In this document: one piece after another, positions 556 through 11,483 of the stretch
Layout of the letters: every line of letters begins with the position of its first letter
Position numbering within the stretch: the first letter of the stretch is position 1
NCBI GenBank assembly: GCA_963662715.1
Contig: OY759724.1
Coordinates: forward strand, 2,202,662-2,266,661
Direction of reading: 5' to 3'
DNA: 64,000 nucleotides
Source: Candidatus Omnitrophota bacterium
Lineage (GTDB): Bacteria > Omnitrophota > Gorgyraeia > Zapsychrales > JANLHA01
Program-made: the position numbers and the translations under genes
Notes under the pieces: generated by a model
Told to the model about the DNA's origin: nothing
Databases searched by the model: none
The model's input: the letters and a program-made list of their open reading frames with translations, nothing else

Positions 556-628
556 GACCCACTAGCTCATCCGGTAGAGCACAGCCCTTTTAAGGCTGGT
601 GTGCCGCGTTCGAGTCGCGGGTGGGTCA
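556..628 (+). tRNA. tRNA-Lys (anticodon UUU)
   Basis: Cloverleaf folded by hand. Acceptor GACCCAC/GTGGGTC, D-arm GCTC/GAGC, anticodon stem CAGCC/GGCTG with loop CTTTTAA, T-loop TTCGAGT, discriminator A. No encoded CCA. Confidence 0.8.
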
Positions 629-734
629 CTTATTTTCAAAATAAGAAATGTCCTTTAGAATGACGTGTTTGATATTTTAGGGTGAAAAGACATTGAATGG
701 CAGGAACATCGCCTTCTCGGTATAAATCTCTAAA

Positions 735-816
735 GGGCGGATGGCGGAATTGGTAGACGCGCATGCCTTAGGAGCATGTGGGGTGACTCGTGGAGGTTCA
801 AGTCCTCTTCCGCCCA
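735..816 (+). tRNA. tRNA-Leu (anticodon UAG), type II with long variable arm
   Basis: Acceptor GGGCGGA/TCCGCCC, GGAATTGGTAGAC D-region typical of Leu tRNAs, anticodon loop CTTAGGA, long variable arm, T-loop TTCAAGT. Confidence 0.75.
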
Positions 817-958
817 CAAAAAGATCTGCCCGGCGATTTTGATTCCCGGGTGTCTGAAAGGATATTTCAAGTTTTGTTGATGCAGAATATTACTTCTGAT
901 AACTTGAATAAATTTTCAGATTAAGTTATAATTCAACAAAATATCATTATTATCATTT

Positions 959-1032
959 GCGGCGGTAATTCAGTTGGCTAGAATGCCACCTTGCCAAGGT
1001 GGATGTCGTGGGTTCGAATCCCATCCGCCGCT
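959..1032 (+). tRNA. tRNA-Gly (anticodon GCC)
   Basis: Acceptor GCGGCGG/CCGCCGC, anticodon stem CCACC/GGTGG with loop TTGCCAA, T-loop TTCGAAT. Followed by a T-run. Confidence 0.8.
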
Positions 1033-2895: not shown

Positions 2896-3159
2896 ATGCC
2901 AAAGATAGAAAAAGAGCTCGAAGTAATGAACGCTCAGGGACTTCATGCACGTCCCGCCGCTCTTTTTGTGCAAATTGCGGCAAAATATGATTCGACCGTT
3001 ACGGTCAGCAAAGACGGGGAAAGCGTCAACGGAAAGTCCATTATGGGTATCTTGATGCTGGGGGCAGAGCAGCATAGTAAAATACATGTTTCTGCTGATG
3101 GAGAAGATGCCGAAAAAGTTGTTCAAGAATTAGAGGAATTTTTAAGTAAAAATGAATGA
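2896..3159 (+). CDS. ptsH: Phosphocarrier protein HPr
   Basis: 87 aa. Active-site His in GLHARPA and the HPr fold signature. Confidence 0.9.
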   Translation: MPKIEKELEVMNAQGLHARPAALFVQIAAKYDSTVTVSKDGESVNGKSIMGILMLGAEQHSKIHVSADGEDAEKVVQELEEFLSKNE

Positions 3160-4987: not shown

Positions 4988-5728
4988 ATGAAAGCATTAA
5001 TTCTAGCGGCAGGGTATGGAACAAGGTTGTATCCCTTAATAAAGGACACGGCAAAACCTTTATTGAAGATCGGCCCCCAGCCCCTGATAAACTATCTTTT
5101 GGATAAGCTGAGGCCTTTGCCTCATTTAAATGAATTGGTCGTTGTGACCAATGAGAAGTTTCATGCTGATTTTATCTCTTGGAAAGAACAGCAGAAGGAT
5201 TTCCCGGCGCCTATCACTATTATCAATGACGGGACAACGTCTCCGGAAGACCGTTTGGGGGCTGTCGGAGATATCCTTTATGCGTTCAAAAATATTAAGC
5301 AGCCGGACGATGTGCTTGTTGTGGGCGGGGATAATTTGTTTGATTACTCCTTGGAAGATTATGTCCTCTTTGCCGAGCAGAAAAGACCCCATGTTTCCAT
5401 CGGACTTTATGATATCGGTGATTTAAAAGAGGCTTCAAAATTCGGAGTGGTCCAGATGGATAAGGACAGCCGGATTACCGTCTTTGAAGAGAAACCGGAG
5501 CATCCCCGGTCCACGTTGATTGCCATGTGTTCCTATTATTTCCCTGTGGATTCGCAGAAGTTGATATTTGATTATGTCCGGCAGTCTCAGCACACGGACA
5601 AAGCCGGGGATTACATCCATTGGTTGACAGAGAGGAATACAGTTTTTGGTTTTAAATTCCAGGGAAAATGGTATGATATCGGTAGTATTGAAACATATCA
5701 GAAAGCTCAAGAGAGGTTCAAGGTTTAA
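4988..5728 (+). CDS. Sugar-phosphate nucleotidyltransferase (NTP_transferase family; possibly a heptose/hexose-1-P nucleotidyltransferase)
   Basis: N-terminal LILAAGYGTRLYPLIKDTAKPLL G-loop of NDP-sugar pyrophosphorylases. 246 aa. Confidence 0.65.
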   Translation: MKALILAAGYGTRLYPLIKDTAKPLLKIGPQPLINYLLDKLRPLPHLNELVVVTNEKFHADFISWKEQQKDFPAPITIINDGTTSPEDRLGAVGDILYAFKNIKQPDDVLVVGGDNLFDYSLEDYVLFAEQKRPHVSIGLYDIGDLKEASKFGVVQMDKDSRITVFEEKPEHPRSTLIAMCSYYFPVDSQKLIFDYVRQSQHTDKAGDYIHWLTERNTVFGFKFQGKWYDIGSIETYQKAQERFKV

Positions 5729-5830
5729 TAATATTCACACGACATTCCCCCGGGCCGGACAGCCGGGATTTTTATTCCGGCGAAGGCGGAGGGATGTTTG
5801 TGACATACAGTAAGAAAGGAAGGGAAAAAG

Positions 5831-7068: not shown

Positions 7069-8487
7069 ATGAAAGCATCTACGGATATTTCTCAGGATTA
7101 TAAAATAAAAGATATGAGCTTGGCGGCATGGGGTCATAAGGAAATTGAATTAGCGGAAGCCGAAATGCCGGGGCTCATGGCTTTGAGAAGGAAATATGCA
7201 GCAGAGAAGCCGTTGAAAGGAAGCCGGATTACAGGCTCCTTGCATATGACGATTCAAACCGCTGTGCTTATCAAGACCTTGACGGAACTGGGCGCGGACG
7301 TCCGCTGGGCCAGTTGTAATATTTTCTCGACTCAGGACCATGCGGCGGCAGCGATTGCTGATCTGGGGGTGCCGGTTTTCGCATGGAAAGGGGAGAGTTT
7401 AAAAGATTATTGGTGGTGCACCAAACAGGCTTTGTCGTTCCCGGATGGTCAGGGGCCGAATCTTATCGTGGATGACGGCGGAGATGCAACACTCATGGTG
7501 CATAAAGGTTATGAAGGAGAAGAGAATCCTGCCGTGCTGGATATTGCCGCTGAAGCAGAGGACGAGAAAGAGCTGCTGGCATGTTTGAAAGAGATTTTGT
7601 CGGAAGATCCTCAGAAATGGCATCGGGCCGTTAAAGACCTCAAGGGTGTATCTGAAGAGACGACCACAGGCGTGCACCGCCTGTATCAAATGATGCAGGC
7701 GGGGAAACTGCTGTTTTCGGCGATTAATGTCAATGATTCCGTTACCAAATCCAAATTTGATAACCTTTACGGTTGCCGGGAGTCTTTGGCTGACGGGATT
7801 AAAAGGGCCACGGATATCATGATTGCTGGGAAAGTCGTCGTGGTTTGCGGTTACGGCGATGTGGGTAAGGGCTGTGCCCGCTCGATGCGCAGTTACGGGG
7901 CACGTGTTATTGTCACGGAAGTTGACCCGATTTGTGCGTTACAGGCGGCCATGGAGGGGTTTGAGGTCAAACGTTTAGAAAATGTCCTGAATATCGGCGA
8001 TATTTATGTGACAACTACAGGAAACTGTGATGTCATCAGAGCCGATCATATGTCGGCGATGAAGGACAAGGCTATCGTATGTAATATAGGACATTTTGAC
8101 AATGAGATTCAGATTGCAAAGCTAGAGCAGTGGCCGGGGATTAAGAAAGTTAATATCAAGCCCCAGGTGGATCAGTATTACTTTTCAGAGGGGCAGTCTA
8201 TTATTGTTTTAGCTGAAGGCCGTCTGGTGAACTTGGGGTGCGCCACGGGACATCCTTCTTTTGTGATGAGCAATTCTTTTACGAATCAGGTCCTTGCGCA
8301 AATCGATCTCTGGCAAAATAACCGGACGATCGATGTCTATCGTTTGTCGAAAACTTTGGACGAGGAAGTGGCCCGGCTTCATCTGGAACACGTTGGCGCC
8401 GAACTTACGCAACTGACTCCGGAACAGGCAAAATATATCGGGGTGCCGCAAGAAGGCCCGTATAAACCTGAACATTACCGCTATTAA
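7069..8487 (+). CDS. ahcY: Adenosylhomocysteinase
   Basis: [29 protein letters not shown]-terminus and NAD-binding GYGDVGKG. Track ORF starts at 7027, but the conserved N-terminus begins at the ATG at 7069. Confidence 0.9.
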
Positions 8488-8510
8488 TATCCAGATTCTT
8501 TAATTCTTCC

Positions 8511-8546
8511 AGGCCTTCTTCATATGTAAGAAGGCCTTCCAAATTT
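8511..8546. terminator. Putative intrinsic terminator after ahcY
   Basis: Perfect 10-bp hairpin AGGCCTTCTT-catatgt-AAGAAGGCCT followed by a T-rich tract (tccaaattttc). Confidence 0.45.
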
Positions 8547-8685
8547 TCACAGTGATGGCGGAGCCCGTGTCTTAGAGGGGATGCTGAGGGATCGGGTGGA
8601 AACAGGGGATTCATGATAAAGGAGTTAACATCAAATTGAAAGTATGATAAAATAACGACAATTTTAAACCAGTTAAGAAGGGGTT

Positions 8686-9684
8686 ATGAAAATGGCAAAA
8701 ATTTATTATGATCAGGACGCAAATATTGATAGGATTAAAGACCGTACCATAGCTATTGTCGGTTATGGCATTCAGGGCCGGGGGCAGGCGCTTAACTTGC
8801 GGGATAGTGGTCTGAAAGTTATCGTGAGCGAACTGGAAGGTACTGAGAATTATAAGATGGCCGAAGCTGACGGTTTTAAGCCTGTTGAGGCTAAAAAGGC
8901 TGCAAAGAAAGCCGATATTATTCAGATTTTAACCCAGGACCATATCCAGGCGGCCTTGTACCGTAAGGCGATTAAAAGAAATCTCAAGGCAGGAAAATCT
9001 CTGGTCTTTTCTCACGGGTTTAATATCCATTTTAAGCAAATCGTCCCTCCGAAAGAGGTGGATGTCTGGATGATCGCCCCTAAGGGGCCGGGGGCATTGG
9101 TGAGACGTCAATATGAGGAAGGTAAAGGCGTGCCTTGTTTAGTGGCGATTCACCAGGACGCTTCCGGTCAAGCCTTACAGGATGCTTTGGCCTATGCCAA
9201 GGGGATTGGCGGAAGCCGGGCCGGTGTCCTGGAAACAACTTTTAAAGAAGAAACAGAAACGGATTTATTCGGAGAGCAGACGGTTTTGTGCGGGGGGGCT
9301 TCTGAACTTGTGAAAGCCGGTTACGAAACTCTCGTTGAGGCTGGATATCAGCCGGAGATTGCTTACTTTGAATGTTTGCATGAACTGAAACTTATCGTAG
9401 ATTTATTTTATGAATACGGGATTCAGGGCATGCGTAAGCGGGTTTCTGATACCGCGGAATACGGTGATTACAGCCGGGGCAAACGTATTATCAATGACCG
9501 TACCCGTAAGGAAATGCGGAAAATTTTGAAGGAAATTCAGTCCGGTAAATTCGCCAGGGAATGGATGAGGGAAAACCGGAAAGGGCGTCCTAATTTTAAT
9601 CAAATGCGTGAAGACGCCAAGAATCATCCCATTGAAAAAATTGGAGAACAGCTTCGGGGCATGATGCCTTGGATGAAAAAATGA
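8686..9684 (+). CDS. ilvC: Ketol-acid reductoisomerase
   Basis: [21 protein letters not shown] Rossmann motif and the KARI family body. Confidence 0.9.
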
Positions 9685-9686
9685 TT

Positions 9687-9779
9687 GTAACGGGCACATT
9701 CTGGAATACGTTTTAACTTTGCTTTAGGGGAGCCGTTCATTTCCTGTGGCTGTGCGGTAGAGGCGCAGGAAAGCGGTGG
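9687..9779 (+). repeat. 93-bp direct repeat, copy 1 (ilvC-leuA intergenic)
   Basis: Identical to 9821..9913 except one base (GCGCAGGA vs GCGCGGGA). Starts 3 nt after the ilvC stop. Confidence 0.9.
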
Positions 9780-9820
9780 GCCCGCTTGGCTGGAATGAAG
9801 TTTTGAAAACAGTTCTTGAG

Positions 9821-9913
9821 GTAACGGGCACATTCTGGAATACGTTTTAACTTTGCTTTAGGGGAGCCGTTCATTTCCTGTGGCTGTGCGGTAGAGGCGC
9901 GGGAAAGCGGTGG
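9821..9913 (+). repeat. 93-bp direct repeat, copy 2, ending 17 nt before the leuA ATG
   Basis: See copy 1. The 3' end (GGAAAGCGGTGGAAGGTGG) supplies the leuA ribosome-binding region. Confidence 0.9.
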
Positions 9914-9929
9914 AAGGTGGGTTGTTATT

Positions 9930-11483
9930 ATGGGAAAACGAGATAAGGTTTTAATTTTTGATACGACACTACGGGACGGAGAGCAGGCCCCGGGTGCGAG
10001 TATGAACAGCGATGAGAAAATGGAAGTCGCTTATCAGCTCGAAAAACTGGGGGTCGATATCATCGAGGCGGGTTTTCCGGTGATATCCCCGGGAGATTTT
10101 GACTCGGTTAAAATGGTTGCCAAAAAGATTAAGCGGGCCAAGGTTTGCGGTCTGGCTCGCTCTATCAAAAAAGATATTGATGCGGCTTATGATGCGGTAA
10201 AAATTGCCAAAGATGGCCGGATCCATGTGTTTTTAGCCACATCAAAGATTCATATGGAGTATAAACTGAAAAAGAACAAAGAAGAAATTGTCCAGATGGC
10301 CGTTGATGCTGTTAGGTATGCCAAGAAAAAGATTGCGGATATTGAATTTTCTCCGGAAGATGCCTCAAGAACCGAAAGAGAGTTTCTGTTCCGTATTTTA
10401 GAAGAGGTGATTAAAGCTGGGGCCAGAACAGTGAATATCCCGGACACAGTCGGCTATAGCATGCCGGCAGAATATGGACAGCTGATAGCGGATATCAAAA
10501 ATAACGTCCCGAATATTCACAAGGCCATTATATCTGTTCATTGTCATGATGACTTGGGGCTTGGAGTCGCTAATTCCTTAATGGCCGTAAAAAACGGAGC
10601 CCGTCAGGTGGAATGCACGGTTAACGGGATTGGAGAGCGGGCCGGGAATGCTTCCATGGAAGAGATCGTTATGGCGATTAAAACCCGGGCGGATTTTTAC
10701 CAATGCTCAACGAATATTAACACCACAGAGATTTGTAAAGCCTCCCGTTTGGTTTCCCGTTTTACCGGTTTTGTCGTCCCCCCCAACAAGGCCATTGTGG
10801 GGAATAATGCCTTCCGGCATGAGGCAGGGATTCATCAGGACGGCGTTCTGAAGGAGCGGTCAACCTATGAAATCATGAGCCCGGATGATGTCGGCTTTGT
10901 GGGGACCGGTCTGGTTCTGGGGAAGCATTCGGGCCGGCATGCCTTTAAGGTGCGTTTGAAATCTTTGGGCATTGATTTGAAAGAAGAACAGGTGGACGCC
11001 GCTTTTGAAAGATTTAAGATCCTGGCTGATAAGAAGAAGCAGGTTTTTGACGAGGACTTAATAGCGATTGTCGAAGATGAGATCAAGGTTTCTAAGCGGA
11101 TTTGGCTTTTGGATGATCTTACAACGACCAGTGGGGCTAAGATCATTCCGGAAGTAAAGATTGTGTTGAAAAGCAAAAACCGAAAATATACCAAGATATC
11201 TTCCGGGGACGGCCCGGTCGATGCCTGTTATAAAGCCATCGACGCGATCACGAAGATCAAGGGAAAACTCCTGGATTATTCGATCCAGTCGGTCACGCAG
11301 GGCAAGGATGCCTTAGGGGAAGTGACTATTAGAGTGAAAATCAATGACAAAGTCGTTATGGCCCGGGGAACGAGTACGGATATTATCGTTGCTTCGGCGA
11401 AAGCCTATATTGACGCTGTTAATAAAGTGCTCACACAAGGGGAACAATATAACCTTAAGGACAGCAAACGGGCTAATGTTTGA
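9930..11483 (+). CDS. leuA: 2-isopropylmalate synthase (LeuA/CimA family with C-terminal regulatory domain)
   Basis: LIFDTTLRDGEQAPGASM and the HxH metal site VHCHDDLGLGVANSL. 517 aa including a LeuA-dimer regulatory domain. Citramalate synthase cannot be excluded. Confidence 0.85.
   Translation: MGKRDKVLIFDTTLRDGEQAPGASMNSDEKMEVAYQLEKLGVDIIEAGFPVISPGDFDSVKMVAKKIKRAKVCGLARSIKKDIDAAYDAVKIAKDGRIHVFLATSKIHMEYKLKKNKEEIVQMAVDAVRYAKKKIADIEFSPEDASRTEREFLFRILEEVIKAGARTVNIPDTVGYSMPAEYGQLIADIKNNVPNIHKAIISVHCHDDLGLGVANSLMAVKNGARQVECTVNGIGERAGNASMEEIVMAIKTRADFYQCSTNINTTEICKASRLVSRFTGFVVPPNKAIVGNNAFRHEAGIHQDGVLKERSTYEIMSPDDVGFVGTGLVLGKHSGRHAFKVRLKSLGIDLKEEQVDAAFERFKILADKKKQVFDEDLIAIVEDEIKVSKRIWLLDDLTTTSGAKIIPEVKIVLKSKNRKYTKISSGDGPVDACYKAIDAITKIKGKLLDYSIQSVTQGKDALGEVTIRVKINDKVVMARGTSTDIIVASAKAYIDAVNKVLTQGEQYNLKDSKRANV

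What the first reader, a model, noticed from the sequence alone, without database searches (positions are those of the whole stretch)
9687..9913. Near-perfect 93-bp direct repeat pair filling the ilvC-leuA intergenic region
Two 93-bp copies differ at one base (1 mismatch in 93) and are separated by 41 bp. The second copy ends in the leuA Shine-Dalgarno region, 17 nt before the ATG. Each copy contains internal inverted repeats (ATTCTGGAAT; TTTCCTG…CAGGAAA). The single mismatch weakens that stem in copy 2. It is a duplicated leader-like element in front of a branched-chain amino-acid gene. It could be a duplicated attenuator or riboregulator, a tandem transcription-factor binding module, or a recent duplication.
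Basis: seen in the sequence. Interest (0 to 1): 0.55.

Follow-up and report, generated by a model that had tools for sequence, protein, structure and literature searches.

The report
Young 93-bp duplication before leuA
Two almost identical 93-base copies really do fill the gap between the ilvC and leuA genes of this uncultivated Omnitrophota bacterium, but they look like a very recent, lineage-specific DNA duplication, not a conserved regulatory RNA, so the finding is fairly ordinary.

Summary
Copies at 9687-9779 and 9821-9913 differ at one base (A9767/G9901) and are 41 nt apart. They fill 227 of the 245 nt between ilvC and leuA.

The riboregulator or attenuator reading is not supported:
- Rfam gives no hit.
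- There is no terminator, no promoter-like site and no Leu/Ile/Val-rich leader ORF.
- Each copy folds no better than shuffled sequence (z about +0.3).
- No similar sequence exists in 85 related Omnitrophota loci, JGI metagenome contigs, viral contigs, plasmids or phages.

The closest relatives (LeuA 88-90% identical) keep the same gene order but have unrelated 51-70 nt spacers. The 70 nt upstream of ilvC, in contrast, are 84-85% conserved. The unit is therefore new to this lineage and its two copies are very young.

It is not a simple tandem duplication: the period is 134 nt but only 227 nt are periodic. Deleting both copies leaves a 59-nt spacer of typical length that folds into one hairpin. 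A discrete 93-nt unit inserted twice therefore remains a live rival.

An assembly error is unlikely but cannot be tested without reads.

Side finding: some relatives carry a covarying structured element, absent from Rfam, at this junction and upstream of other genes.

The parts
8613..8682 (+). Conserved ilvC upstream region. It includes a sigma-70-like promoter match (8625-8653, TTAACA-17-TAAAAT) and the ilvC ribosome-binding region. It serves as the positive control for non-coding conservation.
   Evidence: 84-85% identity over 67-70 nt to L001, L002, L050, L081 and L082. Promoter-like site.
8686..9684 (+). ilvC (ketol-acid reductoisomerase), 332 aa
   Evidence: NCBIfam NF004017, E = 9e-164
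9687..9779 (+). Repeat copy 1 (unit A), 93 nt. It starts 2 nt after the ilvC stop codon. Its main predicted hairpin is at 9733-9776, and the variant base is A at 9767.
9780..9820 (+). Spacer B, 41 nt, unique sequence. Contains a mini-ORF, ATG AAG TTT TGA, at 9795-9806. Its origin is unresolved. It shows weak similarity to unit A positions 15-42 (p about 0.02) and to the ilvC tail in register (p about 0.005). Its 5' end can pair with the leuA Shine-Dalgarno region.
9821..9913 (+). Repeat copy 2 (unit A'), 93 nt, with G at 9901. Its main predicted hairpin is at 9867-9910.
9914..9929 (+). 16-nt segment C, carrying the leuA Shine-Dalgarno-like AAGGTGG (9914-9920), 9 nt before the ATG
   Evidence: read from the sequence
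9930..11483 (+). leuA (2-isopropylmalate synthase), 517 aa
   Evidence: NCBIfam NF002086, E = 3e-235. A 100% identical protein, P0001, is on record on a 3,360,633-bp contig.

Best explanation
The pair is a very recent duplication of a 93-bp stretch of fast-evolving, non-conserved spacer DNA between ilvC and leuA. It is specific to this Omnitrophota lineage.

What is shown:
- The unit has no counterpart in any relative.
- The spacer is 3-4 times longer than in the closest relatives.
- The two copies differ at 1 of 93 bases.

What is inferred:
- The second copy arose by a replication or repair error, such as template switching or illegitimate recombination. A simple one-step tandem duplication does not fit.
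- It has no dedicated regulatory function.
- Its practical effect is to lengthen the untranslated stretch that ribosomes and RNA polymerase cross between ilvC and leuA from about 111 to 245 nt. leuA is still most likely transcribed from the conserved promoter-like site upstream of ilvC.
- Such close direct repeats are prone to deletion, so the arrangement is probably transient and may be polymorphic in the population.
For: - The repeat is real and far beyond chance.
- It is the only such repeat in 64 kb.
- The gene order ahcY-ilvC-leuA-aroE is conserved in Omnitrophota. The ilvC-leuA spacer of relatives has a median of 70 nt, and 51-70 nt in the closest ones with LeuA 83-90% identical. None shows similarity to the unit.
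- Exact 20-22-mers of the unit are absent from JGI metagenome contigs and viral contigs. blastn finds nothing in plasmids or phages.
- Positive control: the 70 nt upstream of ilvC and the ahcY terminator hairpin are conserved at 84-93% identity in the same relatives. A functional element older than the split would therefore have been visible.
- There is no Rfam hit, terminator, promoter-like site or amino-acid-rich leader ORF.
- Folding z-scores are +0.2 to +0.5 for the unit and -0.3 for a single-copy spacer. The spacers of relatives have a median of -3.4.
- Direct repeats under 200 bp that lie close together undergo RecA-independent deletion and expansion by template switching in E. coli (PMC7145654). 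Near-identity therefore fits a young event.
Against: - A one-step tandem duplication is excluded. The period is 134 nt, but spacer B matches neither the 41 nt before copy 1 (16/41) nor, by my hand count, the 41 nt after copy 2 (8/41). At least two events, or a non-tandem copy mechanism, are needed.
- The origin of the first copy is unexplained, since relatives have nothing like it.
- Persistence of a deletion-prone repeat could instead mean selection for it.
- Only 64 kb of a genome of about 3.36 Mb could be searched. Other copies elsewhere are not excluded.
- No strain closer than 90% LeuA identity was available.
Confidence: 0.55

Rival explanations
1. The 93-nt unit is a discrete insertion element, small and non-autonomous, that landed twice in what was originally a 59-nt hairpin spacer (TT + spacer B + segment C). 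One copy sits just after the ilvC stop codon and the other just before the leuA Shine-Dalgarno sequence.
For: - Removing both copies leaves 59 nt, which is within the 51-70 nt range of the closest relatives.
- With short flanks, that reconstructed spacer folds into a single hairpin that brings the ilvC stop codon next to the leuA Shine-Dalgarno sequence: -19.1 kcal/mol, z = -2.49, with 3 of 200 shuffles as good. This resembles the strongly structured spacers of relatives, whose median z is -3.4.
- Relatives show that this junction does accept inserted structured elements: element X, in either orientation.
- The unit has no homologue in relatives, so at least one copy must be an insertion.
Against: - There are no terminal inverted repeats, no target-site duplication and no shared target sequence at the two sites (sequence inspection).
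- There is no third copy in 64 kb and none in any collection searched.
- Two independent hits in the same orientation within 59 nt would need strong target specificity.
- The hairpin statistic is post hoc: one of three constructs was tested. The 59-nt version alone gives z = -1.66.
Confidence: 0.2
2. The copies are a functional, duplicated cis-regulatory module for leuA. This could be a leader RNA, a protein-binding or small-RNA-binding site, or tandem operator or promoter units. In this reading the duplication is kept because it tunes leuA expression relative to ilvC.
For: - Copy 2 abuts the leuA ribosome-binding site. Each copy is followed 15-16 nt later by an ATG: the mini-ORF at 9795 and leuA at 9930.
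- Each copy has a 44-nt hairpin of about -22 kcal/mol. The only substitution keeps the pair, U-A to U.G.
- A deletion-prone repeat is present in the consensus genome.
Against: - No Rfam match. No terminator or promoter-like site. No regulatory leader peptide.
- Stability is not above shuffled controls.
- There is no orthologue in relatives, although neighbouring regulatory DNA is conserved.
- One wobble-compatible substitution is not covariation evidence.
Confidence: 0.12
3. The duplication is an assembly or polishing artefact and the true spacer has one copy, or a different number of copies.
For: The source is a metagenome-derived genome and reads were not available. Repeats shorter than a read or k-mer can be given the wrong copy number.
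Against: - Spacer B is unique sequence bounded by the unit on both sides, so reads must join the unit's end to B and B to the unit's start. That requires at least two copies in the real molecule. Collapse would lower the copy number, not raise it (inference from sequence).
- The copies differ at one base, so they were resolved separately.
- The locus lies on a 3.36-Mb contig, which suggests a long-read or curated assembly.
Confidence: 0.06

Closest known systems
Local direct-repeat duplications made and removed by replication template switching or slippage (E. coli 101-bp repeat assays; PMC7145654)
   Same: Direct repeats of about 100 bp separated by a few tens of bp. The copies are near-identical, which implies a recent origin. 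They are expected to be unstable, with deletion of one copy plus the spacer, or expansion.
   Different: The pair is not a clean head-to-tail duplication. The 41-nt spacer is not explained by either flank. The generating event itself was not observed.
Leader-peptide attenuators and T-box leaders of branched-chain amino-acid operons (enterobacterial leu/ilv leaders; Firmicutes ilv-leu T-box, Rfam RF00230). This comparison rests on established knowledge of these families.
   Same: Position directly upstream of a leucine-biosynthesis gene. Contains a stem-loop.
   Different: No leader ORF with runs of Leu/Ile/Val codons. No terminator. No T-box or other Rfam match. No conservation.
MIRU-type intercistronic minisatellites of mycobacteria. 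This comparison is from my own knowledge and was not checked in the library.
   Same: Direct repeats of 50-100 bp sitting in the spacer between co-directional genes of one operon.
   Different: MIRUs are dispersed over many loci and carry short ORFs that overlap the stop and start codons of the neighbouring genes. Here all three forward frames are closed and no other locus carries the unit.
Element X of other Omnitrophota. It was found here in L017, L040, L067, L068, L042, L020, L030, L061 and L032, with a weaker match in L058.
   Same: Occupies the same ilvC-leuA junction in some relatives and enlarges the spacer to 150-240 nt.
   Different: X has invariant UAAAUUCG and CUCAUU motifs and a hairpin in which 13 of 14 pairs covary. 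It is dispersed, occurs in both orientations, and is often directly upstream of AAGGAGG-ATG. The covariance model of X does not match the window. The unit of the window has no such motifs.
MITE, REP or BIME-type intergenic repeats
   Same: Short, non-coding and hairpin-containing. Located between convergent or co-directional genes.
   Different: No terminal inverted repeats or target-site duplications. Only two adjacent copies are known. Absent from relatives.

Membership tests
Leader-peptide transcription attenuator (leu/ilv type) | Short leader ORF enriched in codons of the regulating amino acids | tested here: not met
   The longest forward ORF in the spacer has 24 codons (GTG 9776-9850) with no run of Leu/Ile/Val. 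The others have 6 codons or fewer. All three frames are closed.
Leader-peptide transcription attenuator (leu/ilv type) | Intrinsic terminator (GC-rich hairpin plus a U run) in front of the structural gene | tested here: not met
   No terminator-like site in 8400-10200. My own scan of 9675-9939 also found none. The hairpins are followed by UGGGCCCGC and UGGAAGGUG.
T-box riboswitch or any Rfam 15 family | Covariance-model match | tested here: not met
   The gathering-threshold scan of the window found only three tRNAs. A permissive scan of 9500-10100 gave one spurious lncRNA hit at E = 1.7.
Conserved structured cis-regulatory RNA (a candidate new riboswitch or leader) | Homologues upstream of the same gene in related genomes, with covariation | tested here: not met
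   No similarity in 85 related loci. The ilvC upstream control is conserved at 84-85%.
Conserved structured cis-regulatory RNA (a candidate new riboswitch or leader) | Folding stability above the compositional background | tested here: not met
   z = +0.35 and +0.54 for the copies. z = -0.3 for a single-copy spacer and -1.85 to -1.94 for the full spacer.
Simple tandem duplication | Two complete adjacent units, with periodicity over twice the period | tested here: not met
   The period is 134 nt but only 227 of 268 nt are periodic. Spacer B versus the upstream 41 nt gives 16/41. Spacer B versus the downstream 41 nt gives 8/41 (hand count).
Dispersed or mobile miniature repeat (MITE, REP, PATE) | Copies at several unlinked loci | tested here: inconclusive
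   None in the other 63.7 kb of the window, nor in any collection searched. The remaining 3.3 Mb of the genome could not be retrieved.
Dispersed or mobile miniature repeat (MITE, REP, PATE) | Terminal inverted repeats and/or target-site duplication | tested here: not met
   The ends GTAACGGGC... and ...GCGGTGG are not complementary. The flanks TGATT|...|GCCCG and TTGAG|...|AAGGT share no duplication.
   The best window hits score 9 bits or less at E of 0.2 or more with filters off. The best hit on the ilvC-leuA spacer scores 3.3 bits at E = 6. The whole window has none at E of 1 or less.
MIRU-like intercistronic minisatellite | Short ORF in the repeat that overlaps the stop and start codons of the neighbouring genes | tested here: not met
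   There are stops in all three forward frames of each copy.

The most novel reading that the evidence does not exclude
The 93-nt unit is a previously undescribed small insertion element, or a lineage-specific leader module, that targets the hairpin spacer between translationally linked genes. It inserted twice, splitting a stop-codon-to-Shine-Dalgarno coupling hairpin and so uncoupling leuA from ilvC. It would belong to the same broad phenomenon as element X, which colonises the ilvC-leuA junction in other Omnitrophota.
Probability: 0.12. Interest if true: 0.45.

Novelty: new member of a known kind. Interest (0 to 1): 0.2.

Why it matters
As it stands, it matters little. It is an example of how quickly intercistronic spacers turn over in Omnitrophota, and a probable marker of very recent, possibly polymorphic, structural change in one genome.

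It would matter more if the unit proved to be mobile, or to alter the coupling of leuA to ilvC. It would then be a handle on how operon spacers are remodelled in a phylum with no genetic system.

The by-product, element X, may be the more useful lead for RNA or mobile-element specialists. It is a covarying structured element, absent from Rfam, that sits in front of ilvC, aroC and leuA in several Omnitrophota.

Tried and rejected
1. Rfam at gathering and permissive thresholds: nothing relevant.

2. Promoter and terminator scan of 8400-10200: nothing in the spacer.

3. Search for the unit elsewhere:
   - the window;
   - 85 related loci;
   - JGI metagenome contigs, with two 22-mers;
   - viral contigs;
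   - plasmids and phages.
   All were negative.

4. Retrieving the rest of the source genome through exact-protein look-up failed. Genome-wide copy number is therefore unknown.

5. Spacer B as a relic copy of the ilvC 3' end:
   - in-register best-16-nt window, p about 0.005;
   - gapped local alignment, p = 0.17;
   - a profile HMM of 54 ilvC tails (53 relatives plus the window) finds nothing in the spacer.
   Treated as unsupported.

6. Spacer B as a degenerate partial copy of the unit: local alignment p about 0.02. Marginal and unresolved.

7. The unit, or the reconstructed 59-nt spacer, as a homologue of the spacers of the closest relatives: no significant alignment.

8. Minus-strand ORFs across the repeat (69 and 45 aa): no Pfam match. 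Judged spurious.

9. The unit as a member of element X: rejected by the covariance model.

10. Provenance through the literature: a preprint on complete Omnitrophota genomes gave no match to the contig size.

Full report
OBSERVATION

The window carries two 93-nt direct copies at 9687-9779 and 9821-9913 on the + strand. They are identical at 92 of 93 positions, with a start-to-start spacing of 134 nt and a unique 41-nt spacer, B, at 9780-9820. A search with up to 3 mismatches finds exactly these two sites in 64 kb, and none in 100 dinucleotide-preserving shuffles. No other long near-perfect repeat exists in the window.

The flanking ORFs are ilvC (8686-9684) and leuA (9930-11483). The 245-nt spacer is therefore TT, copy 1, B, copy 2, and a 16-nt segment C that carries the Shine-Dalgarno-like AAGGTGG.

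The single difference, A9767 versus G9901, turns a U-A pair into U.G in the main predicted hairpin. The energy changes from -24.4 to -23.7 kcal/mol.

ORGANISM AND CONTEXT

The genes around the repeat are ptsI, a nucleotidyltransferase, metK, ahcY, ilvC, leuA, aroE, a prepilin peptidase, aroK and dprA, all on the + strand. LeuA finds its best relatives in Candidatus Omnitrophota genomes, at 90% identity or less. A 100% identical protein is on record on a 3,360,633-bp contig, but that contig could not be retrieved. The gene order ahcY-ilvC-leuA-aroE is widely conserved in the phylum.

IS IT A REGULATORY RNA?

- Rfam gives nothing at gathering thresholds except three tRNAs. A permissive scan gives one spurious hit.
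- The spacer has no terminator-like hairpin with a U run and no sigma-70-like promoter match. A good promoter match lies upstream of ilvC at 8625-8653.
- All three forward frames are closed, and no short ORF is rich in Leu, Ile or Val codons.
- Each copy folds no better than shuffled sequence (z = +0.35 and +0.54). The reverse strand is the same.
- The full spacer reaches z of about -1.9, mostly by pairing the left arm of copy 1 with the right arm of copy 2. Any duplicated hairpin can do this.

COMPARATIVE EVIDENCE

In 51 related loci where ilvC directly precedes leuA, the spacer has a median length of 70 nt. In the closest relatives (LeuA 83-90% identical: L001, L002, L050, L081, L082, L085) it is 51-70 nt.

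None of the 85 loci has any blastn similarity to the 245-nt spacer. Local alignments against the closest spacers are not significant. Exact 20-22-mers from both halves of the unit are absent from the JGI metagenome contigs and from viral contigs. Plasmid and phage collections give no blastn match.

The positive control is decisive. The 70 nt directly upstream of ilvC (window 8613-8682, including the promoter-like site) are 84-85% identical in the same relatives. The ahcY terminator hairpin (8510-8537) is 85-93% identical. Functional non-coding DNA is therefore visible at this distance, and the ilvC-leuA spacer is simply not conserved.

The unit arose in this lineage after the split from the nearest sampled relatives. 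With 1 difference in 93, its two copies are far younger than that split.

The spacers of relatives are strongly structured: median z = -3.36, and 77% are below -2. Coding controls give about -0.1. Ten of 51 look like intrinsic terminators. The window's spacer stands out by lacking such a hairpin.

HOW DID IT ARISE?

A one-step tandem duplication would give 2 x 134 periodic nucleotides, but only 227 are periodic. B matches the 41 nt before copy 1 at 16/41. By hand count it matches the 41 nt after copy 2 at 8/41. With the copies 99% identical, B cannot be a diverged duplicate of either flank. At least two events, or a non-tandem copy mechanism, are needed.

Three weak signals about B were found:
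- an in-register resemblance to the ilvC tail (p about 0.005 for the best 16-nt window, but p = 0.17 for gapped alignment, and no hit with a profile of 54 ilvC tails);
- a resemblance to unit positions 15-42 (p about 0.02);
- the fact that removing both copies leaves TT + B + C, a 59-nt spacer of typical length. With short flanks it folds into one hairpin joining the ilvC stop region to the leuA Shine-Dalgarno region (-19.1 kcal/mol, z = -2.49, 3 of 200 shuffles).

These signals all involve the same low-complexity segment and were found post hoc, so none is taken as established. The third keeps alive the model of a discrete 93-nt unit inserted twice.

Close direct repeats under 200 bp are substrates for RecA-independent deletion and expansion by template switching in E. 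coli (PMC7145654). Near-identity therefore fits a young, probably transient arrangement.

ASSEMBLY

B is unique and bounded by the unit on both sides. Real molecules must therefore contain at least two copies, and an assembler could only have collapsed further copies, not invented the second. The copies also differ at one base, and the contig is 3.36 Mb. An artefact is unlikely but cannot be tested without reads.

VERDICT

The feature is real. It is a recent, lineage-specific duplication in a rapidly evolving spacer (confidence 0.55). The rivals are:
- a discrete insertion unit present twice (0.20);
- a functional regulatory module (0.12);
- an assembly artefact (0.06).

It is not a member of any known leader, riboswitch or repeat family tested. 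Interest is low (0.2).

SIDE FINDING

In relatives L017, L040, L067 and L068, the ilvC-leuA spacer contains a structured element, X, lying between the real ilvC 3' end and a second copy of its last 24 nt, ATGATGCCnTGGATGAAnAAnTAA.

A covariance model of X finds further copies at other sites:
- L042 has two, one directly in front of a chorismate-synthase-like gene start;
- L020 has a divergent pair, one copy in front of ilvC;
- L068 has one in front of ilvC;
- L030 and L032 have one each;
- L061 has one in reverse orientation;
- L058 gives a weaker match.

In 12 copies, 13 of the 14 pairs of the main helix show changes on both sides. 93.6% of cells are paired, and 0 of 500 shuffles reach the observed values. 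Rfam has no match. X is absent from the window.

Noticed in passing
L017:2179-2263, L040:2879-3010, L067:2779-2871, L068:2885-2976 and 1777-1855, L042:3297-3375 and 5715-5800, L020:1102-1173(-) and 1204-1292, L030:6517-6590, L061:2834-2900(-), L032:547-602: Element X is a dispersed structured element of about 70-130 nt in several Omnitrophota. Its layout is GGrrUAAAUUCG, a covarying hairpin with core CUUACGU...UCCGUAAG, then CUCAUU. It is often followed directly by AAGGAGG and an ATG (ilvC, a chorismate-synthase-like gene and others). Thirteen of 14 helix pairs covary. It has no Rfam match and is not present in the window.
   Followed up: partly
L017:2117-2263, L040:2805-3010, L067:2739-2868, L068:2814-2976 (also a weaker case in L049:2894-2996): Where element X sits between ilvC and leuA, the last 24 nt of ilvC (ATGATGCCnTGGATGAAnAAnTAA, encoding MMPWMKK*) are present twice, once on each side of X. 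In L040 the leuA start codon lies inside the second copy. This looks like a duplication that preserved both genes when an insertion split an overlapping ilvC/leuA junction.
   Followed up: partly
L045 and L058 (around locus position 2987-3007): In some relatives ilvC and leuA overlap, giving a spacer of 0 nt. The leuA start then lies within the ilvC tail, which suggests ancestral translational coupling.
   Followed up: no
ilvC-leuA spacers of 35 related loci (for example L015, L021, L033, L061): These spacers are unrelated in sequence but strongly structured: median MFE z = -3.36, with 77% below -2. Ten of 51 carry an intrinsic-terminator-like hairpin directly before leuA. A stem-loop between ilvC and leuA seems to be selected for in the phylum, but the window lacks one.
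   Followed up: partly
window 8510-8537 and 8613-8682: The ahcY-ilvC spacer holds two blocks conserved in the closest relatives. One is a hairpin after ahcY (CAGGCCTTCTTCATATGTAAGAAGGCCT). The other is the 70 nt before ilvC, with a TTAACA-17-TAAAAT promoter match at 8625-8653.
   Followed up: partly
window 556-1032: Three tRNA genes lie in a cluster at 556-628, 735-816 and 959-1032.
   Followed up: no
window 1-64000: Almost all long ORFs lie on the + strand across the whole 64 kb, so the genes form a long co-directional array.
   Followed up: no
L082:157-1857 (and L083): In the JGI relatives of L001, a 566-aa DUF4140/DUF4139 gene lies between ahcY and ilvC. The window and L081 lack it.
   Followed up: no
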